Shown piece by piece: positions 1-18,194 of a DNA stretch of 32,000 nt (positions within the stretch are counted from its first letter, which is position 1; the number at the start of each line of letters is the position of its first letter). The stretch comes from Candidatus Electrothrix sp. GW3-4. Lineage in GTDB: Bacteria; Desulfobacterota; Desulfobulbia; Desulfobulbales; Desulfobulbaceae. Made by a program: the position numbers and the translations under genes. The notes beneath the pieces are model-generated. The model saw nothing but the letters and a program-made list of their open reading frames with translations. It searched no databases and was not told where the DNA came from. The stretch covers positions 4,170,001 through 4,202,000 of the forward strand of contig NZ_CP147990.1 of the NCBI RefSeq assembly GCF_037902255.1. Direction: 5' to 3'.

Positions 1-1
1 T

Positions 2-952
2 CTGACCTGGGGCTACCATCTGGTCCACTCTAAGATTGAGGTCATCGAGACCTCGCGGGGCTGTACTCGTTCATGCAATTTCTGTTCAATGAAACATATG
101 TACGGGCGGAGCTTCAGGACCTTCCCCATTGAACGCGTCTTGCAGGACATTGATGCTATCTATTTTCAGAAAAAAACACGCTGCATCTTTATCACGGACG
201 ATAATATCGTCCTGGATCAGGCCCGACTTATGGAGCTCTGCGACGCGATCATAGCCAAGGGGTATAAAGGGTTAAAACTCTTTGTCCAGGCCGATTGTAT
301 CAGCATAGCCAAGAACGAGGCAATGGTGGCCAAGATGGCAACAGCAGGCTTTGCTTCGATCTTTCTCGGCATTGAAAATGTCTCCCGGCAAAATTTGAGC
401 ACGGCCTGTAAGGGGGATATTATTGCGCCAGCAAAAAAGGCCGTTGAAAACTGTCATAAATATGGGATAATGGTTATTGGTGGCCTGATCTTCGGCTTTC
501 CTGGGGATACCGAGATATCTATTAAAGAAAATTACGAATTTTTTAAAAATCTTCAGTGCGATGCCGCCTATTGTCAAATTCTGACCCCATATCCAAAGAC
601 CGGGATGCGTGAACACCTTCTTGAGCAAGGCTTGGTCACCAACCCAACGGATTACAAAAAATACAATGGCCTATGGGCAAATGTACGAACAAAGTACTTA
701 GATTCCGCCCAGCTCCATTACCAATTTTGGTATCAGCGCCAGGTTGTGCTGGGCTGGTGGAATCCCTCATCACAAACAGGGAAACAGGGGCGGCTCTGGA
801 TATTCATCTGGCGCTTCCTTTTTAAACCCTTTTTGAAGCTCCGCTACGCCCTGCATTTTAAAAAAGACGACTGGCCAGCCCGTTATCAACAGGAGATCGA
901 CCGCCTGAACAAGATGAACAGGTTTACTGATCTTGAAGAGTTCGGAGAATAA
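2..952 (+). CDS. Radical SAM enzyme, 5' end outside window (probably cobalamin-binding class B type)
   Basis: The frame of listed ORF 89..952 stays open back to nt 2. The upstream codons read LTWGYHLVHSKIEVIETSRGCTRSCNFCS, which puts the CxxxCxxC radical-SAM cluster motif at Cys codons 62-64, 74-76 and 83-85. From memory, the ETSRGC..C.FC context is typical of B12-binding radical SAM proteins, whose B12 domain would lie upstream of the window. Stop TAA 950-952 overlaps the next ATG at 952-954. Confidence 0.8.
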   Translation: MTWGYHLVHSKIEVIETSRGCTRSCNFCSMKHMYGRSFRTFPIERVLQDIDAIYFQKKTRCIFITDDNIVLDQARLMELCDAIIAKGYKGLKLFVQADCISIAKNEAMVAKMATAGFASIFLGIENVSRQNLSTACKGDIIAPAKKAVENCHKYGIMVIGGLIFGFPGDTEISIKENYEFFKNLQCDAAYCQILTPYPKTGMREHLLEQGLVTNPTDYKKYNGLWANVRTKYLDSAQLHYQFWYQRQVVLGWWNPSSQTGKQGRLWIFIWRFLFKPFLKLRYALHFKKDDWPARYQQEIDRLNKMNRFTDLEEFGE

Positions 953-1992
953 TGCAAAAGACGTACAACCTTGAATTTACAGAGCAGGAGATTCGCGAGG
1001 CAGTTGCTGCCGACCAACTGCTCTCTATAGAAATTGAGTTCAGTCGGGTCTGTAATTTCCGTTGCTCCTACTGTTATGTTGAGGGGCAGGAGACATGGAA
1101 GAATGAACTCTCTCGGGAAGAGATTAAGGACGTTATCCTCCAGGCCAAGGCCTTGGGTGCCCGAAAAATTATTATCCTGGGCGGTGAGCCTTCTATCTAT
1201 CCCCAGCTCCCGGAAATACTCCATTTCATCGGTCAGGAAGGCCTGGAAATAGAGATGTTCACCAATGGCTCCGGGATTACTCAGGAGCTTGCTGATGTTC
1301 TTGCTCAGGAAAAGGTTCGGGTTGCCCTGAAACTCAATTCCCAGAACGAGGAGCTTCAGGATACGCTTGCCGGTAAACAAGGTGCCTACCAGGCTATCCA
1401 ACGAGCCTTGGGCTGCTTGCGCGAGGCAGGATATCCTGGTAAAGGACTCTACCTGGCCATGAGCACGGTCATTTGCCAACAGAATATTGAAGAGCTCCCG
1501 GCAATCTGGCAATGGCTGCGAGAGCAGGCAATTGAGCCGCTCTTTGAAGTCCTCACCCCCCAGGCCAATGCCTCAGAAAATACCTGGCTTGGGGTGAGTC
1601 CTGAAGAATTGAAAACGCTCTTTACCCAGCTCGCTGACCTTGATCGGAAAAAATTCGGCCGCGATTGGGAGCCTCAGCCTCCGCTGGTGGGTAACAGATG
1701 CATGCGGCACCAGGTTTCCTGCCTGGTGACCTCGAACGGCGATATTATGCCTTGCGTTGGGGTGACCATTCCCCTGGGGAATATCCGTAACAACACCCTT
1801 GCCCATATTCTCCATAATAGTGAAGAGATACAGAATTTAAAGAATTATCGGGAGACCATAAAGGGGGCCTGTCGAACCTGCGAAAAGGCTGAAGAATGTT
1901 ACGGCTGCCGGGGCGCAGCCTATCAGCTCACTGGAGACTACCTTGCCTCCGACCCAACCTGTTGGCGTAACGCCACATTGACAAAATGTTAA
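952..1992 (+). CDS. Radical SAM enzyme with C-terminal SPASM/twitch-type cysteine cluster
   Basis: The N-terminus has FSRVCNFRCSYCYV (CxxxCxxC). IILGGEPSIY is the glycine-rich SAM-binding motif. The C-terminus has CRTCEKAEECYGCRG (CxxCx5CxxC) plus upstream CMRH..SC..PCVG and downstream DPTCW cysteines, as in SPASM auxiliary-cluster domains. Confidence 0.85.
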   Translation: MQKTYNLEFTEQEIREAVAADQLLSIEIEFSRVCNFRCSYCYVEGQETWKNELSREEIKDVILQAKALGARKIIILGGEPSIYPQLPEILHFIGQEGLEIEMFTNGSGITQELADVLAQEKVRVALKLNSQNEELQDTLAGKQGAYQAIQRALGCLREAGYPGKGLYLAMSTVICQQNIEELPAIWQWLREQAIEPLFEVLTPQANASENTWLGVSPEELKTLFTQLADLDRKKFGRDWEPQPPLVGNRCMRHQVSCLVTSNGDIMPCVGVTIPLGNIRNNTLAHILHNSEEIQNLKNYRETIKGACRTCEKAEECYGCRGAAYQLTGDYLASDPTCWRNATLTKC

Positions 1993-2017
1993 GACTGAGT
2001 AATATTGATCTCATCTG

Positions 2018-2326
2018 ATGGATACAATCGTGCAAAAATCCATACAGGTTGCCGACGACTCTCCGTGGTTCTCCGGCCATTTTCCTGATAATCCCATCCT
2101 GCCTGGGGTCGCCCAGCTGGAAATGATCGTCACGCTTCTTTCTGAGACAACAGGAATGCCTCTAAAACTGACCGGGATGAGCAGGGTAAAATTCAGAAAA
2201 ATCGTGCGCCCAGGTGATCTCCTGGATATTCAGGTTGCACCGGGTACGAAAAAAGACCAATATACCTTTAAGATTATCGGGGATAATGAAGATGTCTGCT
2301 CCGGCAGTATTTTTCTTGCGCAGTAG
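2018..2326 (+). CDS. FabZ/FabA-like 3-hydroxyacyl-ACP dehydratase (short single hotdog)
   Basis: FSGHFPDNPILPGVAQLEMI matches the FabZ active-site signature HFP..P..PGV..E. At 102 aa it is shorter than canonical FabZ. Confidence 0.75.
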   Translation: MDTIVQKSIQVADDSPWFSGHFPDNPILPGVAQLEMIVTLLSETTGMPLKLTGMSRVKFRKIVRPGDLLDIQVAPGTKKDQYTFKIIGDNEDVCSGSIFLAQ

Positions 2327-2445
2327 TGCCCCATCTTGGCCCCCTCTTCTTATGCTGAGGCCGGGGAACAAAAAATAAAAACTGGCTGGAAACCTTGGTC
2401 AGCCGCGCTGACCATTTTCATATAAATAAATGAAATAGCGGATGC

Positions 2446-2712
2446 ATGAGTAACGATCGTAATACAACCGTCCTTCGGGTTGCTGAAATAATTATTAACG
2501 AACTCAAGCTTGAGGACGTCACCCCTGAAACCTTTGACGCTGATCTGGATCTGGTGGATGAGGTGGGTATTGATTCGATGGATCTGGCCACTGTTGCCTT
2601 GGTGCTGCGGGATGAATACGGGATACGGATTGATGAAGACGATTACCCCAAACTGACCACCGTGCGCATCATTGCCCAATACATCATTGATAAGCTGAAC
2701 AGCGACGAATAG
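2446..2712 (+). CDS. Acyl carrier protein (dedicated, cluster-specific)
   Basis: 88 aa and acidic. VGIDSMDLATVALVL contains the DS(M/L)D phosphopantetheine-attachment serine motif, and the length fits a four-helix ACP. Stop TAG 2710-2712 abuts the next ATG at 2713. Confidence 0.85.
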   Translation: MSNDRNTTVLRVAEIIINELKLEDVTPETFDADLDLVDEVGIDSMDLATVALVLRDEYGIRIDEDDYPKLTTVRIIAQYIIDKLNSDE

Positions 2713-3780
2713 ATGGCTGCCCGACCGGAGTATAAACAGGAGTATACATTCTCTGCTATCATAGCGGACCCGGCCATCAGAGAACGCTGGGAAAAGGTGC
2801 GCAAATATTTCTTTCTCCGCGAATCCACCTATGATATGACTAACCGCTGCAATGTGCGCTGCGAGGGCTGTTATTATTATAACGGAGAGAAACAGTTTGC
2901 CCAGGAAGTGCGGGATGAGCAGGCCTGGCTCCAGCTTTTTGCAGCGGAAAAGGAACGGGGTATCACCTTTGTGGTCCTGGCCGGAGCTGAACCCTCTCTG
3001 GTACCGGAACTCTGCGCTGCTGCCTACAAGGTTATTCCACACGGTGCCATTGCCAGCAACGGGCTCAAGCCGCTCCCCAAGGAGATTGACTACCGCATCC
3101 ATATTTCCGTCTGGGGCAATGATCAGACCAGCCTGGCGGTACGTAAGGCCCCGGATATGCTGGCCCGCCAGATGGCAAACTATGCCGATGATCCCAGAGC
3201 GGTCTTTGTCTACACCTTTACCTCGGAAAACATCAACGATGCCAGGGAAGTGACCGAGTTGCTGGCAAAGAATAAGCAGCAGATCACTTTTAATATGTTC
3301 TCTGCTCCTGTAGGCTATAATGGTCCTCTTCGTCATAGCGCTGCAAGCCTGGAAAAGACCCGCAAGGTCATGCTGGACTTGCTGACGGAATATCCCGAGA
3401 CTGTCCTCTTTTCCCCCTATAATATCGTTGCCCACACCCATGAACAGGGGCTCCATGCTCTGTTTTCCTGTCCCTATCCCCGAATGAACCCCTCCACCGA
3501 TATCGGTTTGGGGCGTTCTTTCCGGCAATATCGGACAGACCTGCAATGGGATCGTGAGGCGGCCTGCTGCGTTCCGGATACAGATTGCGCCGACTGCCGC
3601 CATTATGCAGCGGGTAGCGCTGTGGTCACGGCCAGGATGTATCGCCATGCCACCGATCCAAGCACCTTCTCGGCCTGGCTCGATTATGTGGACACCTATC
3701 TCAGCGTTTGGGTCAGGGGCTATGAGAAAGGAACAAATCTCTGCACAAGCCTTAGTAATCCGCCTTCAAATACTCAGTAA
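2713..3780 (+). CDS. Radical SAM enzyme (paralog A of a tandem pair)
   Basis: YDMTNRCNVRCEGCYYY carries CxxxCxxC. VVLAGAEPSL is the SAM glycine motif. The C-terminal cysteine motif is ACCVPDTDCADCRHY. It aligns by eye with the next gene. Confidence 0.8.
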   Translation: MAARPEYKQEYTFSAIIADPAIRERWEKVRKYFFLRESTYDMTNRCNVRCEGCYYYNGEKQFAQEVRDEQAWLQLFAAEKERGITFVVLAGAEPSLVPELCAAAYKVIPHGAIASNGLKPLPKEIDYRIHISVWGNDQTSLAVRKAPDMLARQMANYADDPRAVFVYTFTSENINDAREVTELLAKNKQQITFNMFSAPVGYNGPLRHSAASLEKTRKVMLDLLTEYPETVLFSPYNIVAHTHEQGLHALFSCPYPRMNPSTDIGLGRSFRQYRTDLQWDREAACCVPDTDCADCRHYAAGSAVVTARMYRHATDPSTFSAWLDYVDTYLSVWVRGYEKGTNLCTSLSNPPSNTQ

Positions 3781-3791
3781 AATTCTCCATT

Positions 3792-4790
3792 ATGAAAACT
3801 GTCAGTTCCCTGCTGGATGACCATTGGTACGAGCGGTATAAGAAGATCTCCAAGCTGAATTTCCGCAGTTCCATTTACGATGTGACCAACCGCTGCAACC
3901 TGCGCTGCAAAGGTTGCTTTTTCTTTTCCTCTGGTGAGCATGAGGCGGCAGCTGAGGAAAATGACATCGAAAAGTGGCATGCCTTTGTGGAAAAGGAGAT
4001 GGAGCGTGGGGTAAATCTGGCCATTCTCATCGGTGGAGAGCCCACCCTCTGCCTGGATAGGATTGAGGCCTTTTATAAACGCATGCCCACCTTTTGCGCC
4101 ACCAATGGCCTAATCAAGGTGCCCAGGGATCGTTTCCCGGACATGATGGTTGGGCTCTCCCTTTGGGGGACCCCCGAGGATGAGGCAACCCTGCGCGGCA
4201 AGGACACCTTTAAGATCTCCAGTGCTAACTACGCGGGTGACCCCCATACCTATTATCTCTATACCATCACCCCAAAGCAGTTGGGCAAGACCGAAGAGAT
4301 CATCCGCAAAATCAAAGATGTTGGCCTGAAGGTCCATATGCAACTTCTCTCCAATGACGAGGGCGTTGATGGATTTTCCTGGAAGCCCGAGGAACTGATC
4401 GCGATCCGGGACGAGATGGATGCTATGCTGGATGCCTATCCAGAAACGGTGATTTCCTGCAAATATTACCATGAGATCATCACCACCGGCCAAATGCTGG
4501 GCCGTCCCTTTGGCTGGCTGGAATGCCCGTCCGTGACCATTGCCAAAGATAATCGGGAGCCCCAGCCCAAGCGTCTGATCAACTTCATCCGCTGGTCCTC
4601 AGATCTCCAGACCATGCACCGTTGCTGCACCTCGGAAACCAGGGATTGCTCCACCTGTAAGGACGGCGCGGCCCATATGAGTTGGGTCATGGTCAATAAG
4701 CGTGCCCACATGCGAAGTACCAAGGACTTCCAGAACTGGATCGAAGTCTACGAGATGTTCGCCAAACTCTACCAGTTCATCCCCTGGTAA
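3792..4790 (+). CDS. Radical SAM enzyme (paralog B of a tandem pair)
   Basis: YDVTNRCNLRCKGCFFF carries CxxxCxxC. AILIGGEPTL is the SAM glycine motif. The C-terminal cysteine motif is RCCTSETRDCSTCKDG. The motifs are collinear with 2713..3780. Confidence 0.8.
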   Translation: MKTVSSLLDDHWYERYKKISKLNFRSSIYDVTNRCNLRCKGCFFFSSGEHEAAAEENDIEKWHAFVEKEMERGVNLAILIGGEPTLCLDRIEAFYKRMPTFCATNGLIKVPRDRFPDMMVGLSLWGTPEDEATLRGKDTFKISSANYAGDPHTYYLYTITPKQLGKTEEIIRKIKDVGLKVHMQLLSNDEGVDGFSWKPEELIAIRDEMDAMLDAYPETVISCKYYHEIITTGQMLGRPFGWLECPSVTIAKDNREPQPKRLINFIRWSSDLQTMHRCCTSETRDCSTCKDGAAHMSWVMVNKRAHMRSTKDFQNWIEVYEMFAKLYQFIPW

Positions 4791-4797
4791 GCTGTTG

Positions 4798-6048
4798 ATG
4801 GGGGCGAAAGATGCCGTCATTATAGGCTGTGATGCCGTCTCTCCCTTGGGGATTGAGCTGGATGAGCAATGGCAGCGCGCCTTGGCGGGCCGAAGCGGCG
4901 TTGGTCCGCTCACCCGCTTTGCCCTGCCAGAGGACTTCCCGGTCCGCATTGCCGGTCAGGTGCCGGATATTGACCATCTGGACTATCCCTTTCTCACTGC
5001 CCGCCATCAGGCAGCCTGGAGTTCACCGGTCTTTAAATATTCCCTGCTCACCGTAATTCGCGCCTTGAAGCGCAGCGGTATTGAACTGACCGCAGAGCTG
5101 GCGCCGCGCACAGCTGTGACCTATAGCTCAGCCATTGGTGGCTTGGATGCCGTCCTCAGGTCAGACAGACGCCTGCAGGCCGAGAACAAGCTTCCCCATC
5201 CCTATGCCAATCCCAACTCCTGCATCAATATGATCGGCGGCAAGATCGCCATTGCCACTGGTGCCCAGGGACCGATTACCTCCACCATTACCGCCTGTGC
5301 CACTGGCCTGACCTCCATGCTCATCGCGGCCCTGTTCATGGCCCAAGGCCGAGCTGATCTGGCCATCTGTGGAGCAGTGGATTTTGCCCTGGTTGAGCCC
5401 ATTGTAGCCGGTTTTCATACCATGAATGGGGCCTATAACCCCAAAGAGGGCCGGGAAGGAGATCCCCCGGAAAGCGCCAGCAGGCCCTTCTCCATTGATC
5501 GGCGGGGCTTTGTTATCTCTGAAGGGGCTGGCGCGGTGATCCTGGCGACCAGGGAATTTGCCGATGCCCACGGTTTACCTTACGCTGCCCGCCTGGCTGG
5601 CTGGGGGATGACCTCAGATGCCCACCATTTTGTGGCCCCGCATCTAGCCACGGTCAGGCAATGTATGGAGGATGCCTTGGCTGATGCCAAGGTTTCCCCC
5701 CAGGATATTGCTATGGTCAATGCCCATGCCGCCTCCACCAAGGTGGGTGATAGGGTGGAATACGAGGCCCTGCGCGCCGTCTTTGGCGAGAAGATGCCAC
5801 CAATTACCGCCAATAAATCCCTGATCGGACATGCGATGGGGGCCTCCAGCGTCATTGAAACCATCTTTTCCCTCCAGGGCATACAGGACAGCCTGCTGCC
5901 GCCCACCATCAACTATACCCCTGATCCTGAACTGGAACTGGACTGCGTGTCTGAAGGCAGCCGCTCACTTGAGCAGGAGTATATCCTGAAAAACTCCTTC
6001 GGCTTTGGCGGCTGTAATGCCTGCGCCGTTCTCCAGAAGGTCGCCTAA
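4798..6048 (+). CDS. Beta-ketoacyl-ACP synthase (KAS I/II, FabF/FabB-like), complete Cys-His-His triad
   Basis: Motifs present: ITACATGLTS (active Cys), SDAHHFVAP, VNAHAASTKVGD, NKSLIGHAMGASS and a C-terminal NSFGFGGCNA. I chose the ATG at 4798 (MGAKDAVIIG..) over the listed 4702 start. The first 32 codons from 4702 overlap the upstream gene and look non-protein-like. Confidence 0.9.
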   Translation: MGAKDAVIIGCDAVSPLGIELDEQWQRALAGRSGVGPLTRFALPEDFPVRIAGQVPDIDHLDYPFLTARHQAAWSSPVFKYSLLTVIRALKRSGIELTAELAPRTAVTYSSAIGGLDAVLRSDRRLQAENKLPHPYANPNSCINMIGGKIAIATGAQGPITSTITACATGLTSMLIAALFMAQGRADLAICGAVDFALVEPIVAGFHTMNGAYNPKEGREGDPPESASRPFSIDRRGFVISEGAGAVILATREFADAHGLPYAARLAGWGMTSDAHHFVAPHLATVRQCMEDALADAKVSPQDIAMVNAHAASTKVGDRVEYEALRAVFGEKMPPITANKSLIGHAMGASSVIETIFSLQGIQDSLLPPTINYTPDPELELDCVSEGSRSLEQEYILKNSFGFGGCNACAVLQKVA

Positions 6049-6051
6049 TCC

Positions 6052-7317
6052 ATGAAGGCTCCCAAGAACAGACGTGTTTTTGTGGTCGGCTATGATGCGG
6101 CCACCGCCTTGGGTAATACCTTTACCGCAACCTGGCAGGCCGCTATCGAAGGCCAGGCAGGCTTCCGCAGGGTTACCCGCTGCGCGACCGCCAGCCGCAG
6201 CAATGTGGTGGGGGAAATCCCGGACTGGGACCCCAGCCAGCTCCCCTATGTGGACCGGAAAGAGGCCTCGCTCTGGAATGCCGCCTATGTCTTCCTGACC
6301 ATGGAGGTCTGTCGCCGGGCCCTGGAACATGCCGGGCTGGAAATGAATGAGGAAACCGGTCCACGGACCGGCTGCCTGATCGGTTCGGCCCTGAACGGGA
6401 CTGATGCCTACCGAATTGCGACAGAGAACTATCGGGTCGGCGGCCCCTTTAAGGTCAGCCCCTATCTTCTGCCCAATGTCTGCGCCAACCTGCCCGGCGG
6501 CAAGGCGGGCATGCTCACCGGCTTTACCGGACCTATCTTCTCTCCCCAAGGGGCCTGCGCCTCAGGGAATCATGCCATTGCCCTAGGCGCCAGGATGATC
6601 CGGGATGGGGACTGTGATTTCATGCTGGCAGGCGGGGTGGAGACCTGCCTGGTCCCGGAAATTATCCAGGGGTTTTCCAATATGCTGGCCAGCATCAAGG
6701 TGGGGGAAAAGGACCGGGCCTTTAAGGATCCAACCCAGGCCTCTCGCCCCTTCAGTCTGGATCGCAAGGGCTTTGTCCTGGCCGAAGGAGCAGCCGTGCT
6801 GGTGCTGGCCGCAGAAGAGGCAGTGCAGGCCCTGGGACTCCAGCCAAAGGCAGAGGTTTTAGGGATAGGCTGGAACTCAGATGCCCACCATTTTACCCGG
6901 CCCAACGCAACTACCATAATTCGGGCCATCCATGATGCCTTGGATGATGCGGAGATCAGCGCCGAGGACATCGGCTCCATCAATGCCCACGGCACCTCTA
7001 CCCCCACCGGAGATGCAACTGAGGTGGAATGCCTGCGCAGGGTCTTTGGCGAGGCCCTGTCCGGCATACCGATCTCAGCCAATAAATCCCAGGTCGGGCA
7101 TTCCCTGGGGGCCTCAGCGGCCATCGAAGCATCCCTCTCTATCGAGGCCATGAATAAAGGCTTGGTTCTACCCACGGTGAATCATATCCCGGATCCCGCC
7201 TTTGCTGACCTGGATGTGGTGCCCAATGTGGTACGTAATCATAGTTATGAATATGTCCTGTCCAACTCCTTTGGTTTTGGTGGAACCAACTGCTGTCTCG
7301 TGTTCCGAGGTATCTGA
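6052..7317 (+). CDS. Beta-ketoacyl-ACP synthase (KAS II/FabF-like), complete Cys-His-His triad
   Basis: Motifs present: PQGACASGNHAIA, SDAHHFTRP, INAHGTSTPTGD, NKSQVGHSLGASA and NSFGFGGTNC. It starts 4 nt after the previous stop. Confidence 0.9.
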   Translation: MKAPKNRRVFVVGYDAATALGNTFTATWQAAIEGQAGFRRVTRCATASRSNVVGEIPDWDPSQLPYVDRKEASLWNAAYVFLTMEVCRRALEHAGLEMNEETGPRTGCLIGSALNGTDAYRIATENYRVGGPFKVSPYLLPNVCANLPGGKAGMLTGFTGPIFSPQGACASGNHAIALGARMIRDGDCDFMLAGGVETCLVPEIIQGFSNMLASIKVGEKDRAFKDPTQASRPFSLDRKGFVLAEGAAVLVLAAEEAVQALGLQPKAEVLGIGWNSDAHHFTRPNATTIIRAIHDALDDAEISAEDIGSINAHGTSTPTGDATEVECLRRVFGEALSGIPISANKSQVGHSLGASAAIEASLSIEAMNKGLVLPTVNHIPDPAFADLDVVPNVVRNHSYEYVLSNSFGFGGTNCCLVFRGI

Positions 7318-7796
7318 TGCGACCTAAACCCTTTCGTCCTCAGCCCTTAGAAAATCCCTCCTTTGTCCGCGATACTACCAGCGGCCTGGTCTGGTTTCGC
7401 TGCGAAATGCGGACCCTGTACATTGACACTGATCGTTCCCAGGTGGTCTATCATTCCAATTACCTCAAGTATTTCGAATTTGCCAGGGCTTCCCTGATGC
7501 GGGAGACCAAGTACCCGTATAAGCAGATAGAGGAGGACGGCTTTGTCTATCCCATCATCAAGACCGAGCTGAACTATTATTCGCCGCTCTTTTATGATGA
7601 TCTGATGTACATCCACATCCGTCCCGGAAAACTCGAACGCGTCAGGCTTCAGTTTGAGTACCTGATCACCAAGGCGGAGCAGGGCGAGATCTCCTGCACC
7701 GGCTTTACCCGCCATTGCGCAATAAATGAAAAGGGGGTACCGGTGGAGATTGATCCACAGACCCTGCGCCTCTGGCAGGAATTTCCTGATTCATGA
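7317..7796 (+). CDS. 4HBT/YbgC-type hotdog acyl thioesterase
   Basis: YIDTDRSQVVYHSNYLKYFEFARASLMRE matches the D..(G)VV(Y)H..Y..YFE.AR signature of 4-hydroxybenzoyl-CoA thioesterase-family enzymes. The start overlaps the previous stop (TGATG, 7315-7319). Confidence 0.75.
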   Translation: MRPKPFRPQPLENPSFVRDTTSGLVWFRCEMRTLYIDTDRSQVVYHSNYLKYFEFARASLMRETKYPYKQIEEDGFVYPIIKTELNYYSPLFYDDLMYIHIRPGKLERVRLQFEYLITKAEQGEISCTGFTRHCAINEKGVPVEIDPQTLRLWQEFPDS

Positions 7797-8605
7797 GCAA
7801 CGAACGCCTTCCTGTCACGCTCCCTGTTCAACCTTGGTTCCAGGACCATTCCTTTGCCGGTAAAATCGTTCTCCCTGCGGTGGAAAGTCTCCAGCTGCTC
7901 GCAGCGCACGTTGCCGAAGCCTTTCCCGGCGCAGATATCTCTGTTATGGAGGACATGCGCTTTGCTAAGTTTCTTGAAATCCCGCCTGAGGCCACGGAGA
8001 TGGATGTTCTGGTTGAATTCGCTCCTGCTGGGGAGAGGGTAGGGGCTCAGCTCCTCACCCGGAAGGCATGCGGGAAGATGAGCAGGATCAAGGAACACAG
8101 CCAAGTCTTTTTTCCCCTGGCGGCGGGAGAACGCCCGCCTTCCCAGCTTGATCCAACCCTGCCTGCAAACGCGCTGCAAAAAATTCCTGTTGAACAGCTC
8201 TATCGTGAATTAGTGCCTTTCGGCCCGCAGTACCAGACTCTTCAGGAGAGGTTGTTTTTGTATGAGGACAGTGCCTGGGGCGTTCTGAAAGCACCTTTGC
8301 TTCCCTTGGTCTCTACGGTTCAGGAACAGATCGGTTCACCTTTTCCCTTGGATGGTGCCATGCATGCGGCCAGTGTTTTGGGGCAGCAGAAGGTGGACTT
8401 TACCCCCTTACCGATTGGTATTGATCAACGGATTATCCTGCTTCCGACCCAGCCTAGTGGTGAATACCTGACTAAGGTGTCCGCTGTCGCGCTGTCAGAG
8501 AAGGAGCTGGTGTTCGATTTGGTGATTCTTGATAGGGCTGGGCAGGTTTATGAGGTGGTGAAGGGTTTGAGGATGCGGGATGTGCGTGGGGGGATGAGGA
8601 TATAG
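7793..8605 (+). CDS. Stand-alone polyketide-synthase-type (double hotdog) dehydratase
   Basis: QDHSFAGKIVLP fits the PKS DH motif HxxxGxxxxP. A second-half motif, PLDGAMHAA, fits DxxxH/Q. The 270-aa length fits a double hotdog fold. There is an ATGA overlap with the upstream gene (7793-7796). Confidence 0.7.
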   Translation: MSNERLPVTLPVQPWFQDHSFAGKIVLPAVESLQLLAAHVAEAFPGADISVMEDMRFAKFLEIPPEATEMDVLVEFAPAGERVGAQLLTRKACGKMSRIKEHSQVFFPLAAGERPPSQLDPTLPANALQKIPVEQLYRELVPFGPQYQTLQERLFLYEDSAWGVLKAPLLPLVSTVQEQIGSPFPLDGAMHAASVLGQQKVDFTPLPIGIDQRIILLPTQPSGEYLTKVSAVALSEKELVFDLVILDRAGQVYEVVKGLRMRDVRGGMRI

Positions 8606-8802
8606 GCTTTTTTTCGTGTTTATTGATGAGTTCACATAAAACAACTAACAAACAGTACTGATAACGGAAATCTGGGCAGAATGAAAACCTTAAACGTTGA
8701 TGACCTGGTAAAAAGTCAGAAATTAGCAAATCGCTAACGACAACTCAGTAAGTTACAATACGAAATATCGCGAAATCGGACTTTTTACGAATCCATCAAA
8801 CG

Positions 8803-9639
8803 TTATTCTTCAGAGAAAGGAGATACAACTTTTTTCCCAAGAGCTGAAACTATTGGTTCGTGATCTTTAAGGTTTGTTGTGAGTAGTTCAGCATCATTTG
8901 GACATAAAAAAGCAAAGACAGCGTCACCAAGCCATCTGCAATCCCTGTCATTTAAATCGCAACGAGGATGTTTTAATATTCTTTTTATTACTTTTAGTCT
9001 GTTCGTATTTTCTCGTTTTTCAGAATCATTTTCGATGGCATCCTTGATCAGTTCCAAGTGCTTTAAGTTTCCTAACATCATTTTTTTAACACTGCAATCA
9101 TTACTATTATCACATTTAACAGGCTTGTCTTGAATGAGTCCTGTTGATTCTTCAAATGGATCTTTCTCGCTATAGCAATTCAAAGGAAAGATCACATCTG
9201 TAGCAATCTTTCTTCTTCTTTTCCAAGCCTTAAAAATTATAACTTTTAAGGCCAATCTTGATTCGTCATATATAATTTTATCCATTTCAGGAGCAGGATC
9301 TCCATACTTGGAAAGTAAATCTTGAGGGGTTAGCTTTGCAATTGAATTGTCATGAGCAACTTTTAGTGCTTCAAGAGCCGTTGAAGTTTTGTAACGTTGA
9401 GGGGTTCTTGAAAGTTTCTGTATAGCATCAATAGTTTCACTATAGGACTCTGTTGAGACTAACTTGTTATGTGCATATACATAATTTCTTAACGGTCCCG
9501 CTTTAAACTCTTTGATCGCATAAACAGGGAGAAGGGTGGTTTCATAGTTAGCAAGAGCCTTTTTAGCTAAATTATGCTGTTTGCCTGATTTTACAAGTAG
9601 ATCGGTTAAAATGGTTGTGTCGATAAATGCCTTACTCAT
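8803..9639 (-). CDS. Split PIN-like nuclease-domain protein with inserted Cys-pair region (third gene of AT-rich operon)
   Basis: The N-terminus MSKAFIDTTILTDLL looks like a PIN first strand with its acidic residue, followed by YAIKEF. The C-terminus WLGDAVFAF..AELLTTNLKDHEPI resembles the PIN distal D...A and T.(D/N)..D(F/H) motifs. The roughly 180-aa insert carries KCDNSNDC and RCDLNDRDC. The start overlaps the upstream stop (ATGAGTAA, 9632-9639). The domain call rests on motif recollection, not a search. Confidence 0.55.
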   Translation of the reverse strand: MSKAFIDTTILTDLLVKSGKQHNLAKKALANYETTLLPVYAIKEFKAGPLRNYVYAHNKLVSTESYSETIDAIQKLSRTPQRYKTSTALEALKVAHDNSIAKLTPQDLLSKYGDPAPEMDKIIYDESRLALKVIIFKAWKRRRKIATDVIFPLNCYSEKDPFEESTGLIQDKPVKCDNSNDCSVKKMMLGNLKHLELIKDAIENDSEKRENTNRLKVIKRILKHPRCDLNDRDCRWLGDAVFAFLCPNDAELLTTNLKDHEPIVSALGKKVVSPFSEE

Positions 9640-10279
9640 TAAAGCCAGCCATCATTTGGTCAACATGAGCTGGATTAATATTAAATTCAAGATCTTCTAA
9701 ATCCATTATCATGTCTATTGATTCTTCAAATTGAATAAACGGCTCTTCCTGTATTTTTCTCAAGATAGAAGCGATCTGATTAATCTGAGTCTCTGTGGTT
9801 AAAGCTCCATGGTCACGGTTGGCTAACGCATGGAAAAGAGCACTAACTACCGCACCAAATCCATCCCCGAGACTTCTGCAGCAAAAAAGTTCTGCCAATA
9901 TTTTTGCAAGATGAAGCATGGCGTTATCTTGCCCGATGAAATCATCATTTTTTAGTGACTCTCGAGCCTCTGTAATTTCTTCGATGGCTTTGTCTAACAA
10001 CAGCAAAGCTTTGTTAAATAATGGGGTTATTGACTCCTGGCAAGGATATAACGCTCTGGTTTTTATCTTCTCTACATAATCACGAGAATAATAGGCTTCA
10101 TCGTCTATAATTTTAATCGAGTCTTTTGCAATTTTAGAATTTAAAGTACCAGTTAAGGGATCTGTATCTAATTGAATGCTAATGTCATCAGCAGAAACAC
10201 AATCTGATGTTTCATCTGATTGGATTTCAATAGGGAAAATAGACTCACCGGTTTCTTTTAAATTATAATCACTATTCAT
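9632..10279 (-). CDS. Hypothetical protein, acidic N-terminal tail and helical C-terminal half (second gene of AT-rich operon)
   Basis: 215-aa ORF, overlapped at both ends by its neighbours (ATGA at 10276-10279). The N-terminal ~45 aa are rich in D/E/S. I recognised no motif. Confidence 0.65.
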   Translation of the reverse strand: MNSDYNLKETGESIFPIEIQSDETSDCVSADDISIQLDTDPLTGTLNSKIAKDSIKIIDDEAYYSRDYVEKIKTRALYPCQESITPLFNKALLLLDKAIEEITEARESLKNDDFIGQDNAMLHLAKILAELFCCRSLGDGFGAVVSALFHALANRDHGALTTETQINQIASILRKIQEEPFIQFEESIDMIMDLEDLEFNINPAHVDQMMAGFNE

Positions 10280-10977
10280 TTGAGATCTCCCAGGACCATT
10301 TTACTATCTCGCTTAATAAGGTGATGCACTTGCGAAACCCATTCAGCTACATTTAATTGACTTGGTTTTACAGGTAATCTTGTGTAATAATCAACATCAT
10401 AATTAAGTATAATATTTTTTAAAGATTGGCTTTCTAATTCATCAAGACCAATCGGCTTTTCAAAAGCATACTGCTTTATTGCTACTTTAAACGTTTGAGA
10501 CACACCTAAATTGTCATCTTCAATTCTGAAAGAAAAAGAAGGCTCTTTTATCTTTCCCTCAATATTAAAAAAATTCCCGTCTGGAATCTTTAATTTCTGG
10601 GTATTTAAAATTAAATCGGCAGCATGATCTTGATCATCGCATTTTTTTTCGTAAAAAAAACGGGATCCAACACGTATAAAAAGTTTAATATCAAGAATGT
10701 TACGAACTAACTTGATAAATTTCTCTTGCTCTTTAATTATTTCTTTTATCCCAGAGTGATAAACTATTACAAAAGCCTTATTGATATCGACTTGAAGGCT
10801 AATTTTATCTTTAACTCTAAATGATTGTCTATTTGGATCAACAGCTTGAGGGATAATGTCTGGCCAAATTTTAGCCGCCTCTGTCCACAATTCACCGGTT
10901 TTGTCCCACAGGCTATAAGCATTGTCATATCGTATTTCACAAGTAACTCGATTAAGACTAAAATCCGAAATGTGCAT
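10276..10977 (-). CDS. Hypothetical protein, possibly TIGR04255-family-like (first gene of AT-rich operon)
   Basis: I chose the ATG at 10977 (MHISDFSLNRV..) because AAGGA lies 5 nt upstream (complement of tcctt at 10983-10987); the listed 11013 start has no such site. The N-terminus LNRVTCEIRYDNAYSLWDKTGELWTEAAKIWPD resembles, from memory, the start of the uncharacterised TIGR04255 family. Confidence 0.6.
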   Translation of the reverse strand: MHISDFSLNRVTCEIRYDNAYSLWDKTGELWTEAAKIWPDIIPQAVDPNRQSFRVKDKISLQVDINKAFVIVYHSGIKEIIKEQEKFIKLVRNILDIKLFIRVGSRFFYEKKCDDQDHAADLILNTQKLKIPDGNFFNIEGKIKEPSFSFRIEDDNLGVSQTFKVAIKQYAFEKPIGLDELESQSLKNIILNYDVDYYTRLPVKPSQLNVAEWVSQVHHLIKRDSKMVLGDLK

Positions 10978-11404
10978 ATATATCCTTATTGATAAATAAT
11001 TTAAGCAGAACAACAGGAAGATGAATAGAATTGTTCAATTCTGTAGGCTAATTTAATGTTACACATGAATATCTTACAGGGCAAGAAAGAAAAGAACAGA
11101 AAAATTAAAATTTATCCCCATTGAGGGCTAACGTTAGTAAAGAAACTCATTTTGTTAGCAAAGACCGAGAGTGTCTTTGATTTACTCTCGCAATCGACCT
11201 GCGGAGAGGTGCTGGGAACAGGGTGGGGCTCACGTTCGAATTTCACAGCTAGGACAAAAACGGGTCACATGCAACGCCCGCCTGACAAACAGAAAAGGAA
11301 CAAGGAAGCTGGCACATCGTGGGAATTTATTGTAAGTGTATAAGAAATACATAAGAGGTGAATATATCCTTCCAATATAACTATTCATTACGAGGCCAAA
11401 AACA

Positions 11405-15442: not shown

Positions 15443-16339
15443 TTACAGATCCAACCAGGATTCAGAAAAGATAGCCTGACCGGAAAGACAACGGAAGGTC
15501 TTGTAATGCTCAAGTGCGGCCCCTTCCAGGGTAGCCGGATCAGGCATATCACCGTCCATCATACCGTGAACCAGATCCACCAGGTCCTGACGCTCGCCTT
15601 TGCAGATGGCCATCAAGTCGTTATCGTAAGAGTTAACAATAGCGGTACTGATACCGTATTTCATCAGCATGATGAGATAGGTGCGATCCAGGTATTTCCG
15701 CAGATGCTCAGCCACGCCATTGGATACATTGGATAGTCCAACAGTGGAACCGGCCCCAGGAGCGATATCCGGCAGCATCATCATGAACTCCAGGCCAGAG
15801 GCAATCTGATCAGCACCCAAGGTCATAGGGGTTCCAATGGGATCGAACAGGATCTTTTCATTGGGAATCCCTGCCTCGTTCATAGCCATCATAAGGTCGA
15901 CAGCCATGGCAGCACGCTCATTAGAGTCACGGGGCATACCATCCGGTCCCCAAAGCAGGGCGATAACATTACAGTTGGCCTCGGCAGCCACCGGGATCAG
16001 GGCCTCCATCCGCTCTGGCTGAGCAGAGATGGAGTTCATGATAGCGTTTTCTTTGTTCTTAACGGCCTTGAAACCGGCAATCATGGCGTCGGTGTTGGTG
16101 GTGTCCAGACAGAGCGGAGTATCAATAACCTCTTCCACGGTTTGTACAACCCAAGGCAACAACTCGGTGCCATCCTTGCGCGCCGGTCCGATATTCAGGT
16201 CAAGATAGGAGCCTCCGGCAGCCGTCTCTTCTTTTGCCATCTCCTGGATGGGTCCTGGAATACGTTCTTTCATGGCTGAACCGCTTCGAGTCCCCATGAT
16301 ATTGATGCTTTCGGCGATACCTTTTACTGTCATTGCCAT
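15443..16339 (-). CDS. Pterin-binding methyltransferase (methyltetrahydrofolate:corrinoid methyltransferase, AcsE/MetH-domain-like)
   Basis: GGSYLDLNIGP, PLCLDTTN and GLSNVSNG match the DHPS-like pterin-binding barrel of methyl-THF-dependent methyltransferases. AAGGAG lies upstream of the ATG at 16339. Confidence 0.7.
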   Translation of the reverse strand: MAMTVKGIAESINIMGTRSGSAMKERIPGPIQEMAKEETAAGGSYLDLNIGPARKDGTELLPWVVQTVEEVIDTPLCLDTTNTDAMIAGFKAVKNKENAIMNSISAQPERMEALIPVAAEANCNVIALLWGPDGMPRDSNERAAMAVDLMMAMNEAGIPNEKILFDPIGTPMTLGADQIASGLEFMMMLPDIAPGAGSTVGLSNVSNGVAEHLRKYLDRTYLIMLMKYGISTAIVNSYDNDLMAICKGERQDLVDLVHGMMDGDMPDPATLEGAALEHYKTFRCLSGQAIFSESWLDL

Positions 16340-17947: not shown

Positions 17948-18107
17948 AGTAATTACTCCTTCTTTTTATATATAAAAGCTTATTATTAATATTAGGGACG
18001 TTAGTTTGTGGAAAAAGAGATTATCAGCTTGTTTTTTTGGGTCAAAATATGTGAACAAAAAACGTTTAGTGTCTGGAAATGGATTGTGTATATATTAGAT
18101 TTGATTG

Positions 18108-18162: not shown

Positions 18163-18194
18163 TTTTTTTCTGACGAGATTTCAAAGGGAATATT

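What the first reader, a model, noticed from the sequence alone, without database searches (positions are those of the whole stretch)
1..8605. Coupled operon joining four radical-SAM enzymes to a private ACP / KS / KS / DH / TE set: candidate pathway for an unusual lipid
Seen in sequence: ten same-strand genes with abutting or overlapping junctions (taATG 950-954, TAG-ATG 2710-2715, TGATG 7315-7319, ATGA 7793-7796). The set has one probable B12-type radical-SAM enzyme (truncated at the edge), one SPASM-type, and two paralogous radical-SAM enzymes. It also has an ACP, a short FabZ-like dehydratase and two ketosynthases that both keep Cys-His-His, so they are not a KS/CLF pair. A 4HBT thioesterase and a stand-alone PKS-type DH with HxxxGxxxxP and DxxxH complete the set. 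No ketoreductase, enoyl reductase or acyltransferase is visible in the window; they may lie upstream. Established knowledge: radical-SAM enzymes acting on acyl chains catalyse C-C coupling, methylation and cyclisation. Radical-SAM-rich FAS-like clusters were proposed, but not proven, for ladderane synthesis in anammox bacteria (Rattray et al. 2009, Biology Direct). Inference: the operon builds and then radically modifies (branches, cyclises, cross-links or desaturates) an acyl chain on its own ACP. I cannot name the product.
Basis: partly seen in the sequence, partly recalled or inferred. Interest (0 to 1): 0.8.

Follow-up and report, generated by a model that had tools for sequence, protein, structure and literature searches.

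The report
Radical-SAM fatty-acid-like lipid gene cluster
This is a real gene cluster for making an unusual lipid, shared by most relatives of cable bacteria and partly by the anammox "ladderane" candidate clusters; the cluster type was already reported in 2009, its product is still unknown, and the "four radical-SAM" set is two separable modules.

Summary
Window 1-8605 carries ten same-strand, tightly coupled genes with the stated domains and motifs. An identical public contig shows they are the last ten genes of a 14-gene block.

The block is modular:
- **Core (g3-g10):** ApeI-like dehydratase, ACP, two paralogous radical-SAM enzymes, two intact ketosynthases, thioesterase and PS-DH. All eight genes are present in order in 54 of 55 Desulfobulbales loci with enough flank.
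- **Upstream module (g1-g2 and four genes before them):** B12 and SPASM radical-SAM enzymes, present in only 10-13 of 86 loci. About 33 loci instead carry ACP, a KS-CLF fusion and a TIGR04072 B12 radical-SAM enzyme.

Comparison with Kuenenia sequences from a paper supplement:
- g2 matches kuste3343 (47% identity, E 1.5e-113).
- g1 is not the kuste3342 type.
- The conserved pair g5/g6 matches none of the four Kuenenia radical-SAM candidates. It belongs to an unmodelled family that sits next to an ACP in six of seven more distant loci examined.

The overall architecture is aryl-polyene-like. Rattray et al. (2009) already described this synteny for Desulfotalea, which makes no ladderanes.

My best reading is a private-ACP acyl chain modified by oxygen-independent radical chemistry and then released or attached to a lipid. 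This is inferred, not shown. Verdict: new member of a known but uncharacterised kind; interest 0.5.

The parts
2..952 (+). g1: C-terminal 316 aa of a 498-aa cobalamin-type (class B) radical-SAM enzyme. Part of the variable upstream module.
   Evidence: Pfam Radical_SAM 64.8 bits. The full-length protein on the identical contig L081 and on L001 has B12-binding plus Radical_SAM. Best NCBIfam hit is BchE at 166.6 bits against a cut-off of 481; TIGR04072 scores 97.6 against 360. 23% identical to kuste3342.
952..1992 (+). g2: SPASM-type radical-SAM enzyme, the counterpart of Kuenenia kuste3343. Part of the variable upstream module.
   Evidence: Pfam Radical_SAM 91.4 bits and SPASM 39.9 bits. Below every NCBIfam cut-off. 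47% identity over 340 aa to kuste3343, E 1.5e-113. Found in 13 of 86 loci.
1978..2005 (+). Promoter-like site (TTGACA, 16 nt, TAATAT) at the boundary between the upstream module and the core.
   Evidence: Consensus scan, 10 of 12 matches. This is a pattern match only, not evidence of function.
2018..2326 (+). g3: short ApeI/FabZ-like hotdog dehydratase. First gene of the conserved core.
   Evidence: Pfam FabA 35.2 bits and ApeI-like 30.7 bits (cut-off 28.5). Best solved relatives are 3esi and 6qsr, ahead of the FabZ entries. The HFPxxPxxPGV motif and a Glu are readable in the translation.
2396..2414 (+). GC-rich hairpin followed by a T run, inside the 119-nt g3-g4 spacer.
   Evidence: Terminator-like scan, 8 pairs of which 5 are G-C. 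The unaligned gap here is 118 nt in the window against 30 nt in L001, about 88 nt longer.
2446..2712 (+). g4: private acyl carrier protein of the core.
   Evidence: Pfam PP-binding 36.7 bits. A DSM serine motif is readable. Median 83% identity across the loci.
2713..3780 (+). g5: radical-SAM enzyme of an unmodelled family found next to ACP genes, with a conserved C-terminal Cys motif.
   Evidence: CNVRCEGC motif. Invariant C46/C50/C53, G91/E93 and C285/C292/C295 in an 88-sequence alignment. AlphaFold model pLDDT 95.9. Nearest solved structure is SkfB, TM 0.54, 15% identity. An ACP gene is adjacent in six of seven more distant loci examined.
3792..4790 (+). g6: paralogue of g5 and the most conserved gene of the cluster.
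   Evidence: 29% identity to g5, E 2e-40. CNLRCKGC and CC..DC..C motifs. Median 85% identity, range 81-95%.
4798..6048 (+). g7: FabF-like ketosynthase with intact active-site residues. The ketosynthase that goes with the g5-type enzyme in other phyla.
   Evidence: Pfam ketoacyl-synt N and C domains. fabF model 337 bits, below the cut-off of 493.75. Cys, His and Lys motifs present. g7-like ketosynthases lie beside ACP and a g5-like gene in L085, L088 and L089.
6052..7317 (+). g8: second FabF-like ketosynthase, also with intact active-site residues. Not a chain-length factor.
   Evidence: Best solved relatives are canonical FabF enzymes (1j3n, 273.7 bits).
7317..7796 (+). g9: YbgC/FadM-type 4HBT thioesterase.
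   Evidence: TIGR00051 83.2 bits, above its cut-off of 68.7. Pfam 4HBT_2 and 4HBT.
7793..8605 (+). g10: stand-alone double-hotdog PKS-type dehydratase. Last gene of the core.
   Evidence: Pfam PS-DH 33.2 bits and PKS_DH_N 30.8 bits. HxxxGxxxxP and DxxxH readable. Weak matches to PKS dehydratase domains 7zmf, 6obt and 3kg6. Its homologue is fused to a PPTase domain in L086.

Best explanation
The region is the 3' ten genes of a 14-gene block in a Candidatus Electrothrix-like member of the Desulfobulbaceae. It is one arrangement of a modular, aryl-polyene-like type II fatty-acid-synthase-like cluster found across the Desulfobulbales.

**What is shown.**
- There is an almost universal eight-gene core: ApeI-like dehydratase, ACP, two paralogous radical-SAM enzymes with a C-terminal Cys motif, two catalytically intact FabF-like ketosynthases, a YbgC-type thioesterase and a PS-DH dehydratase.
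- There is an exchangeable upstream module. Here it is a hotdog protein, ACP, ketosynthase, PlsC-type acyltransferase, a class-B radical-SAM enzyme and a SPASM radical-SAM enzyme. The last is the counterpart of Kuenenia kuste3343.

**What is inferred about how it works.**
- An acyl chain is grown on the private ACP by the ketosynthases.
- Keto groups are reduced by a borrowed ketoreductase and dehydrated by the two hotdog dehydratases. No dedicated enoyl reductase acts, so the chain stays unsaturated.
- The radical-SAM enzymes act on the ACP-tethered chain. They abstract hydrogen without oxygen and, through their auxiliary cluster, oxidise the radical to a double bond or a new C-C bond. The B12 enzyme may methylate.
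- The thioesterase frees the product, or the PlsC-type acyltransferase places it on a glycerolipid.
- In sister genomes LolA-like and MMPL proteins carry it to the envelope.

The product is unknown and is very unlikely to be a ladderane.
For: - **Domains and catalytic motifs:**
- **Operon extension:** a contig 100% identical over 8726 bases extends the block upstream.
- **Core conservation:** the core is intact and in order in 54 of 55 loci.
- **Alternative upstream modules and the downstream GT/MMPL-methyltransferase/deacetylase module:**
- **Link to anammox:** g2 is 47% identical to kuste3343, and the TIGR04072 enzyme of sister loci is 35% identical to kuste3342.
- **Aryl-polyene kinship:**
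  - ApeI-like Pfam hit, with 3esi and 6qsr as best structures for g3.
  - 6qsp as best structure for the KS-CLF fusion.
  - KR, LolA-like protein and a weak ApeP-like hit in sister loci.
- **ACP partnership of the g5 type:** an ACP gene lies beside it in other Desulfobacterota, a Pyrinomonadaceae MAG, a Polyangiaceae MAG, a contig carrying the protein named for Reinekea, and an unnamed metagenome contig.
- **Fold:** g5 models confidently as a radical-SAM barrel with a conserved CC-x5-C-x2-C tail. It is closest to SkfB, SuiB, BlsE and anSME, enzymes that use auxiliary clusters.
- **Constraint:** g4, g5, g6 and g8 have medians of 77-85% identity across the order, against 48-51% for g3 and g10.
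Against: - No product, transcript or enzyme activity was examined.
- No KR, ER or malonyl transferase lies in this type of locus, so chain building depends on unseen housekeeping enzymes.
- The ketosynthases are FabF-like rather than ApeO-like, so a saturated chain made with help from FabI is not excluded.
- The nearest structural relatives of g5 mostly act on peptides, nucleotides or sugars, not lipids.
- Some g5 relatives lie in polysaccharide clusters with no ketosynthase, so the family's chemistry need not concern long acyl chains.
- Export genes are absent next to the window's copy.
Confidence: 0.6

Rival explanations
1. A type II, oxygen-independent route to polyunsaturated acyl chains that feed the C31:8/C31:9 hydrocarbons seen in Desulfotalea psychrophila. 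This is Rattray's hypothesis, and it is a specific-product version of the best explanation.
For: - Desulfotalea has the syntenic clusters, has C31:8 and C31:9 hydrocarbons at 5% of lipid, and was reported to lack a Pfa-type synthase.
- The window's cluster has ketosynthases, two dehydratases and a thioesterase but no enoyl reductase.
Against: - I could not check whether Desulfotalea or this organism has ole or pfa genes.
- No lipid data exist for Electrothrix-like bacteria in what I read.
- Rattray's synteny rested on kuste3342/3343 homologues. In my loci only a minority carry a kuste3343-type gene (13 of 86), and the kuste3342 type is absent from the window.
Confidence: 0.15
2. An aryl-polyene-like pigment or polyene lipid anchored in the outer membrane for protection against oxidants, with radical-SAM tailoring.
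For: - ApeI-like dehydratase, 4HBT thioesterase and PlsC-type acyltransferase are present here.
- Sister loci add a KS-CLF fusion closest to 6qsp, a KR, a LolA-like protein, an MMPL-methyltransferase fusion and a weak ApeP-like hit.
Against: - No aryl-acid ligase, ammonia lyase or KR lies in window-type loci.
- The core ketosynthases are closest to canonical FabF.
- Export genes are missing beside the window's copy.
Confidence: 0.15
3. Two functionally separate operons that merely abut: the upstream module (g1, g2 and the four genes before them) makes one thing and the core (g3-g10) makes another.
For: - g1/g2 are present in only 10-13 of 86 loci.
- They are separated from the core by inserted minus-strand genes in L083 and by several kb in L039 and L055.
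- A good promoter-like site lies just before g3.
Against: - The ACP-KS-PlsC part recurs on the same strand upstream of the core in most of the 18 loci that have it; L035 is the exception, with it downstream and inverted.
- It is mutually exclusive with the alternative module, which also carries ACP, a ketosynthase and a B12 radical-SAM enzyme. This suggests the two fill the same slot.
- Only 25 bases separate g2 from g3 here.
Confidence: 0.15
4. The core makes a primary metabolite or cofactor precursor on ACP, such as a dicarboxylate or a modified short acyl unit, rather than a membrane lipid.
For: - The ACP and the radical-SAM pair are very highly conserved (83%, 77%, 85% medians) and near-universal in the order.
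- A minimal ACP-rSAM-rSAM-KS form exists.
- Relatives occur with an ACP but no ketosynthase.
Against: Envelope-export, glycosyltransferase-like and lipid acyltransferase genes travel with the core in most genomes. Two ketosynthases, two dehydratases and a thioesterase suggest repeated chain extension.
Confidence: 0.07
5. A ladderane (fused cyclobutane) lipid pathway like that proposed for anammox bacteria.
For: g2 is 47% identical to kuste3343. antiSMASH labels similar Desulfobacterota clusters 'ladderane'.
Against: - No ladderanes were found in Desulfotalea, which carries the syntenic clusters.
- The window lacks the kuste3342/TIGR04072 enzyme, a KS/CLF pair and a phytoene-dehydrogenase-like gene.
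- g5/g6 have no counterpart among the Kuenenia candidates.
Confidence: 0.03

Closest known systems
FASII-like clusters of Desulfotalea psychrophila that are syntenic with Kuenenia stuttgartiensis kuste3335-3352 (Rattray et al. 2009, PMC2649909)
   Same: - Same bacterial order.
- Same idea: extra ACPs, several FabF paralogues and radical-SAM enzymes.
- g2 matches kuste3343 at 47% identity.
- Sister loci carry the kuste3342-type (TIGR04072) B12 enzyme, a kuste3340-like ACP, a kuste3341-like KR, a polysaccharide-deacetylase-like gene and a phytoene-dehydrogenase-like gene.
   Different: - The window has a different B12 enzyme (g1).
- It has no KR, no phenylacetyl-CoA-ligase-like gene, no phytoene-dehydrogenase-like gene, no methyltransferase and no mutated ketosynthase.
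- Its most conserved genes, g5/g6, have no counterpart among the four Kuenenia radical-SAM candidates.
- I could not read Desulfotalea sequences directly.
Anammox Cluster I (kuste3603-3608: amxACP, amxFabZ, amxFabF2/amxFabFmut, PDH, B12 radical-SAM enzyme; Dietl 2023; Granatino 2026 preprint)
   Same: Private ACP, a dedicated dehydratase, paired ketosynthases and a cobalamin radical-SAM enzyme. In sister loci the KS-CLF fusion scores 203.5 bits against 9s5h_B, above canonical FabF. I take 9s5h_B to be a recently deposited anammox FabF homologue, but the entry name does not say so.
   Different: - Here all three ketosynthases keep the catalytic residues, so there is no KS/CLF pair.
- g3 is closer to ApeI-like proteins than to the solved FabZ entries.
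- kuste3608 is only about 25% identical to g1.
Aryl polyene (APE) type II PKS clusters (ApeA-R)
   Same: - ApeI-like dehydratase, 4HBT thioesterase and PlsC/LPLAT-type acyltransferase.
- Best NCBIfam hits for the ACPs and ketosynthases are PRK09184/PRK09116/PRK09185-type models. From memory these come from APE-type clusters.
- In sister loci: a KS-CLF fusion closest to 6qsp, a KR, a LolA-like protein and an MMPL transporter fused to a methyltransferase.
   Different: - No aryl starter machinery.
- Radical-SAM enzymes are not part of described APE clusters (from memory).
- The core ketosynthases are FabF-like.
Jaw5/C10P radical-SAM cyclopropanase acting on a carrier-bound polyketide chain
   Same: A radical-SAM enzyme proposed or shown to modify a ketoacyl chain during assembly. 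The 2026 review names this and ladderanes as the only such cases.
   Different: From memory, Jaw5 is a HemN-like enzyme working with an iterative type I PKS. g5/g6 are SkfB/anSME-like in fold and sit in a type II system.

Membership tests
Anammox-type candidate 'ladderane' clusters (Rattray 2009) | kuste3343-type SPASM radical-SAM enzyme | tested here: met
   g2 against kuste3343: 47% identity over 340 aa, E 1.5e-113.
Anammox-type candidate 'ladderane' clusters (Rattray 2009) | kuste3342-type B12 radical-SAM enzyme (NCBIfam TIGR04072) | tested here: not met
   Full-length g1 scores 97.6 bits against a cut-off of 360 and is 23% identical to kuste3342. The feature is met in sister loci: L002 scores 389.2 bits and is 35% identical.
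Anammox-type candidate 'ladderane' clusters (Rattray 2009) | Ketosynthase paralogue with a mutated active site (KS/CLF-like pair) | tested here: not met
   g7, g8 and the upstream ketosynthase all keep the active-site Cys, His and Lys. A KS-CLF fusion occurs only in sister loci.
Anammox-type candidate 'ladderane' clusters (Rattray 2009) | Phytoene-dehydrogenase-like flavoprotein | tested here: not met
   No hit in the window, L081 or L001. Present in L002, with a weak hit in L004.
Anammox-type candidate 'ladderane' clusters (Rattray 2009) | Ladderane lipids as product | not testable with these tools
   The literature reports none in Desulfotalea psychrophila.
Aryl polyene (APE) clusters | ApeI-type dehydratase | tested here: met
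   PF22818 scores 30.7 bits against a cut-off of 28.5. The best solved relatives are 3esi and 6qsr.
Aryl polyene (APE) clusters | ApeO/ApeC ketosynthase/chain-length-factor pair | tested here: not met
   The core ketosynthases are closest to canonical FabF and both are catalytically intact.
Aryl polyene (APE) clusters | Dedicated ketoreductase (ApeQ) and aryl-acid activating ligase (ApeH) | tested here: not met
   No SDR or AMP-binding gene in L081 or L083. tblastn with kuste3341 and kuste3344 fragments finds a KR only in loci with the alternative module.
Aryl polyene (APE) clusters | Lipid acyltransferase, thioesterase and LolA/MMPL export set | tested here: inconclusive
   The PlsC-type acyltransferase and the 4HBT thioesterase are present. 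LolA-like and MMPL genes occur only in sister loci and not beside the window's copy.
Class B (cobalamin-binding) radical-SAM enzymes | N-terminal B12-binding domain plus CxxxCxxC radical-SAM core | tested here: met
   PF02310 plus PF04055 are listed for the full-length g1 product on the identical contig L081. Its 90%-identical L001 homologue scores 63.9 and 62.3 bits. The motif CTRSCNFC is readable at the window edge.
SPASM/twitch radical-SAM enzymes | C-terminal auxiliary Fe-S cluster domain | tested here: met
   For g2, PF13186 scores 39.9 bits against a cut-off of 21.5.
SPASM/twitch radical-SAM enzymes | The same domain in g5/g6 | tested here: inconclusive
   No SPASM Pfam hit. Against that, C285, C292 and C295 are invariant and C286 nearly so, and the nearest structures are SkfB, SuiB and anSME at TM 0.46-0.54. 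Metal content is not testable here.
FabF (TIGR03150 equivalog) | Score above the curated cut-off | tested here: not met
   g7 scores 337.4 and g8 367.0 bits against a cut-off of 493.75. They are divergent paralogues, not the housekeeping FabF.
Pfa-type PUFA synthase | Multidomain PfaA-like protein | tested here: not met
   TIGR02813 scores only about 59-60 bits against a cut-off of 1010. All proteins are discrete.

The most novel reading that the evidence does not exclude
The ACP plus g5-type radical-SAM enzyme, often with a g7-type ketosynthase, is an unrecognised enzyme unit found in several phyla. It would perform oxygen-independent C-H functionalisation (desaturation, ring closure or cross-linking) of carrier-protein-bound acyl groups.

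In Desulfobulbales, cable-bacteria relatives included, the duplicated and very strongly conserved pair would make a core envelope lipid or a hydrocarbon precursor. That product would be distinct from anything in the anammox candidate set.
Probability: 0.2. Interest if true: 0.8.

Novelty: new member of a known kind. Interest (0 to 1): 0.5.

Why it matters
A 2026 review names only two cases in which radical-SAM enzymes are proposed to modify ketoacyl (fatty-acid-type) chains: ladderanes and the Jaw5 product. For ladderanes, nothing has been shown experimentally.

Anammox bacteria cannot be manipulated genetically, and their radical-SAM candidates failed to express in E. coli. This cluster offers two ways forward:

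- **Cultured hosts for an anammox candidate.** A close counterpart of kuste3343 sits in some members of an order that includes cultured sulfate reducers, for example Desulfogranum japonicum (L055).
- **A second, unstudied enzyme pair.** g5/g6 is a much more widespread radical-SAM pair, present in cultured genera (Desulfopila, Desulfofustis, Desulfogranum) and sitting next to an ACP gene in most loci examined. No curated family or paper I found describes it.

Splitting the cluster into a universal core and exchangeable modules shows which genes to delete or reconstitute first. If the product is a major envelope lipid of Desulfobulbales, it could also become a biomarker for that group, including cable bacteria.

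Tried and rejected
- **Curated families for the radical-SAM genes.** All NCBIfam hits are far below their cut-offs, so "housekeeping family" is rejected.
- **g5/g6 as the kuste3342/3343 pair.** I first assumed this from gene order. Sequences recovered from the Javidpour supplement disproved it. kuste3342 is a B12 enzyme of the TIGR04072 type, kuste3343 matches g2, and g5/g6 match neither.
- **Anammox homologues of g5.** I looked through three large protein searches and three cluster look-ups. None of the roughly 360 listed proteins is named as anammox. Each search shows only the best 120, so absence is not proven.
- **N-terminal fragments of the other Kuenenia genes (about 128 aa each).** They gave only weak or generic matches apart from the ACP and the deacetylase.
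- **PDB comparison of the methyltransferase domain from sister loci.** It did not single out the anammox methyltransferase.
- **Literature searches.** I searched for an assigned product, for Desulfobulbales "ladderane" clusters, for radical-SAM acyl-ACP desaturation, and for an ole/PUFA explanation of the Desulfotalea hydrocarbons. Nothing was found beyond Rattray 2009.
- **Membrane-spanning-lipid synthase paper.** It had no bearing on this family.
- **PADLOC and Pfam on the three low-GC genes downstream.** No hits.

Full report
**1. Observation**

The ORF list and translations show ten + strand genes between 1 and 8605.

- The first gene has no stop upstream and begins inside a CTRSCNFC radical-SAM motif, so it is cut by the window edge.
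- The other gaps are 3-25 bases, except a 119-base spacer between g3 and g4.

Pfam confirms every domain call:

| Gene | Pfam result |
|---|---|
| g1 | Radical_SAM |
| g2 | Radical_SAM + SPASM |
| g3 | FabA/ApeI-like |
| g4 | PP-binding |
| g5, g6 | weak Radical_SAM |
| g7, g8 | ketosynthase N and C domains |
| g9 | 4HBT |
| g10 | PS-DH |

- g5 and g6 are paralogues, 29% identical, E 2e-40.
- g7 and g8 are 38% identical and both keep the catalytic Cys, His, Lys and His.
- The HxxxGxxxxP and DxxxH motifs of g10, the DSM serine of the ACP and the YbgC-type Asp of g9 are readable.
- The likely start of g7 is the ATG at 4798, not the GTG at 4702.

**2. Source and true extent**

- An exact look-up of g5 found a Logan contig (L081) that is 100% identical to window 1-8726 and reaches 7.3 kb further upstream.
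- After a ribonucleotide reductase gene, L081 carries a 136-aa protein, an 85-aa ACP, a 410-aa ketosynthase, a 247-aa PlsC-type acyltransferase and then the full 498-aa g1 with B12-binding and Radical_SAM domains. The 136-aa protein has a homologue in L083 that is a 4HBT_2 hotdog.
- The block therefore has 14 genes.
- No ketoreductase, enoyl reductase or malonyl transferase lies in it.
- The closest named relatives are Candidatus Electrothrix: 94% for the g5 protein and 84% nucleotide identity to L001.

**3. Conservation and modularity**

The best 80 are nearly all labelled Desulfobulbales or unclassified delta-/proteobacterial MAGs.

*Core.* tblastn with the ten window proteins shows g3-g10 in the same order in 54 of 55 loci with enough flank. 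Median identities are:

| Gene | g3 | g4 | g5 | g6 | g7 | g8 | g9 | g10 |
|---|---|---|---|---|---|---|---|---|
| Median identity (%) | 51 | 83 | 77 | 85 | 74 | 79 | 72 | 48 |

*Upstream modules.* g1 and g2 behave differently.

- ACP-KS-PlsC lies near the core in 18 loci, on the same strand upstream in most (L035 has it downstream and inverted).
- The B12 enzyme is present in 10 loci and the SPASM enzyme in 13.
- About 33 loci instead have ACP, a 722-aa KS-CLF fusion and a B12 enzyme that passes the NCBIfam TIGR04072 equivalog cut-off (389.2 against 360).
- The two modules do not co-occur as whole modules. L062 mixes the alternative module's ACP and KS-CLF with an inverted g2-type gene.

*Other genes in sister loci.*

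- Loci with the alternative module also have a divergent operon with a weak ApeP-like dehydratase hit, a FabG-like KR, a LolA-like protein and an unknown gene.
- L002 adds a phytoene-dehydrogenase-like flavoprotein, with a weak hit in L004.
- About 40 loci carry a downstream set: a 121-aa gene, a GT25-like gene, an MMPL-methyltransferase fusion and a polysaccharide deacetylase.
- That downstream set is absent beside the window's copy and beside L001.

*Internal signals.* A promoter-like TTGACA/TAATAT site lies just before g3, and a hairpin lies in the g3-g4 spacer. Both are pattern matches only.

**4. Relation to the anammox clusters**

Rattray et al. 2009 reported striking synteny between Kuenenia FASII-like clusters and Desulfotalea psychrophila. 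They named kuste3343/DP1855 and kuste3342/DP1853. They found no ladderanes in Desulfotalea, but did find C31:8 and C31:9 hydrocarbons.

The supplements of Javidpour et al. 2016 hold Kuenenia sequences. Local BLAST against them gave:

| Kuenenia protein | Compared with | Result |
|---|---|---|
| kuste3343 (full length) | g2 | 47% over 340 aa, E 1.5e-113 |
| kuste3342 (first 400 aa, a B12 enzyme) | TIGR04072 enzyme of L002 | 35%, E 4e-83 |
| kuste3342 (first 400 aa) | g1 | 23% |
| kuste2803 and kuste3608 | g1 | 23-25% |
| all four | g5, g6 | only a 58-residue match around the cluster motif |

Fragments of other Kuenenia genes link kuste3340 to the alternative module's ACP (37%, E 9e-13) and kuste3351 to the deacetylase (E 4e-9). 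They link kuste3337 and kuste3338 only weakly to the MMPL-methyltransferase fusion.

So the anammox parallel is real for g2 and for genes that this window lacks. It does not cover the conserved pair g5/g6.

**5. The g5/g6 family**

- No Pfam or NCBIfam model is specific to it.
- An exhaustive search of 1.84 billion cluster representatives found only 445 clusters at E up to 0.001.
- Alignments show invariant C46, C50, C53, G91, E93, N116, G117 and R144. They also show C285, C292 and C295, with C286 nearly invariant.
- A profile search of solved structures gives SkfB at E 4.9e-17, then 8wm2 (AbmM), then the tetraether synthase 7tol at E 1e-5.
- The AlphaFold model is confident (pLDDT 95.9, pTM 0.93).
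- Its nearest structures are SkfB, SuiB, BlsE, viperins and anSME, at TM 0.41-0.54 and 11-17% identity.

Gene neighbourhoods of relatives:

| Locus | Source | Neighbourhood |
|---|---|---|
| L085 | another Desulfobacterota | ACP, g5, g6 and g7 orthologues only |
| L086 | unnamed contig with core orthologues | full core, with g10 fused to a PPTase domain |
| L088 | Pyrinomonadaceae MAG | KS, ACP, g5-like, B12 enzyme, ligase, KSIII |
| L089 | Polyangiaceae MAG | KS, ACP, g5-like |
| L087, L090 | contig carrying the protein named for Reinekea; a metagenome contig | g5-like plus ACP, inside polysaccharide/sulfotransferase clusters |
| L084 | Methylorubrum (more distant relative) | alone, among glycosyltransferases |

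An ACP gene is therefore the recurring neighbour, in six of these seven loci. That is the main evidence that these enzymes act on a carrier-bound substrate.

**6. Kinship with aryl-polyene clusters**

- g3 passes the ApeI-like Pfam cut-off. Its best solved relatives are 3esi and 6qsr, ahead of the FabZ entries.
- The KS-CLF fusion of sister loci is closest to 6qsp and to 9s5h_B, ahead of canonical FabF. From memory 6qsp is ApeO. I take 9s5h_B to be an anammox FabF homologue, but the entry name does not say so.
- KR, a LolA-like protein, MMPL, a methyltransferase, a PlsC-type acyltransferase and a 4HBT thioesterase complete the resemblance, with a weak ApeP-like hit.
- The core ketosynthases, by contrast, are closest to canonical FabF, though below the fabF cut-off.

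**7. Mechanism**

Shown: the parts list, intact catalytic motifs, modular conservation and the ACP partnership.

Inferred:

- The chain grows on the private ACP.
- The two dehydratases act and no dedicated enoyl reductase does, so the chain stays unsaturated.
- The radical-SAM enzymes abstract hydrogen without oxygen and oxidise the radical through an auxiliary cluster. This is the usual role of such clusters in the SPASM/twitch group (established knowledge).
- The B12 enzyme may methylate.
- The product is released by the thioesterase or transferred to a lipid by the PlsC-type enzyme.

I put 0.6 on this general scheme and much less on any specific product.

**8. Novelty and literature**

- Papers up to 2026 give no function for these Desulfobacterota clusters. 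antiSMASH "ladderane" hits in Desulfobacterota are noted as unexplained.
- Other searches found nothing further.
- The cluster type has been known since 2009, so this is a new member of a known, uncharacterised kind.

What this analysis adds:

- the split into a core and exchangeable modules;
- the assignment of g2 to kuste3343;
- the finding that g5/g6 match none of the four Kuenenia radical-SAM candidates and usually sit next to an ACP gene.

**9. Limits**

- I had no Desulfotalea sequences or whole anammox proteomes.
- I had only the first 400 residues of three of the Kuenenia enzymes.
- Taxon names for many homologues are missing.

Noticed in passing
window 8803-11013 (minus strand): Three consecutive ORFs (278, 215 and 245 aa) lie in a stretch of 32-37% GC, against 47-61% in the cluster. 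They have no Pfam or PADLOC hit. They sit where sister genomes carry the GT/MMPL-methyltransferase/deacetylase genes, so this may be an inserted island.
   Followed up: partly
window 2327-2445: The unaligned g3-g4 gap is about 88 nt longer than in the Electrothrix locus L001 (118 nt against 30 nt). It holds a GC-rich hairpin (2396-2414) followed by a T run. It could be an attenuator, an RNA stability element or a small repeat insertion.
   Followed up: partly
window 16817-18719: dnaN lies on the minus strand (16817-17947), and no dnaA-sized ORF follows it in the ORF list of at least 120 aa. The cumulative GC skew reaches its minimum at about 17-18 kb, so the replication origin may be near here.
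   Followed up: no
window 15443-16339 and 18195-18719: A pterin-binding/MtrH-like methyltransferase gene and a CobO corrinoid adenosyltransferase gene lie about 7-10 kb from a cluster that encodes a cobalamin-type radical-SAM enzyme. No link was tested.
   Followed up: no
window 21159-24920: A 1253-aa UvrD-type helicase with a C-terminal PD-(D/E)XK nuclease domain (AddA-like).
   Followed up: no
L012 13383-18391: In this Desulfocapsaceae MAG about 5 kb is inserted between the two core ketosynthase genes g7 and g8. In the other loci these two genes are adjacent.
   Followed up: no
L086 15228-16727: The g10-type PS-DH dehydratase is fused to a 4'-phosphopantetheinyl transferase (ACPS) domain in a 499-aa protein. 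This is an unusual fusion and ties the dehydratase to carrier-protein chemistry.
   Followed up: partly
L087 10001-11285 and L090 10001-11255: A g5-type radical-SAM gene and an ACP gene sit with no ketosynthase inside sulfotransferase- and glycosyltransferase-rich polysaccharide clusters. L087 carries the protein that NCBI names for Reinekea marinisedimentorum. This hints at an ACP-borne acyl decoration of a sugar polymer.
   Followed up: partly
L088 7164-19065: A Pyrinomonadaceae (Acidobacteriota) locus combines a MaoC dehydratase, a ketosynthase, an ACP, a g5-like radical-SAM enzyme, a B12 radical-SAM enzyme, an AMP ligase, a KSIII, a SnoaL-like protein, a fatty-acid desaturase and another ketosynthase. 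It is a different radical-SAM lipid-like cluster worth its own look.
   Followed up: no
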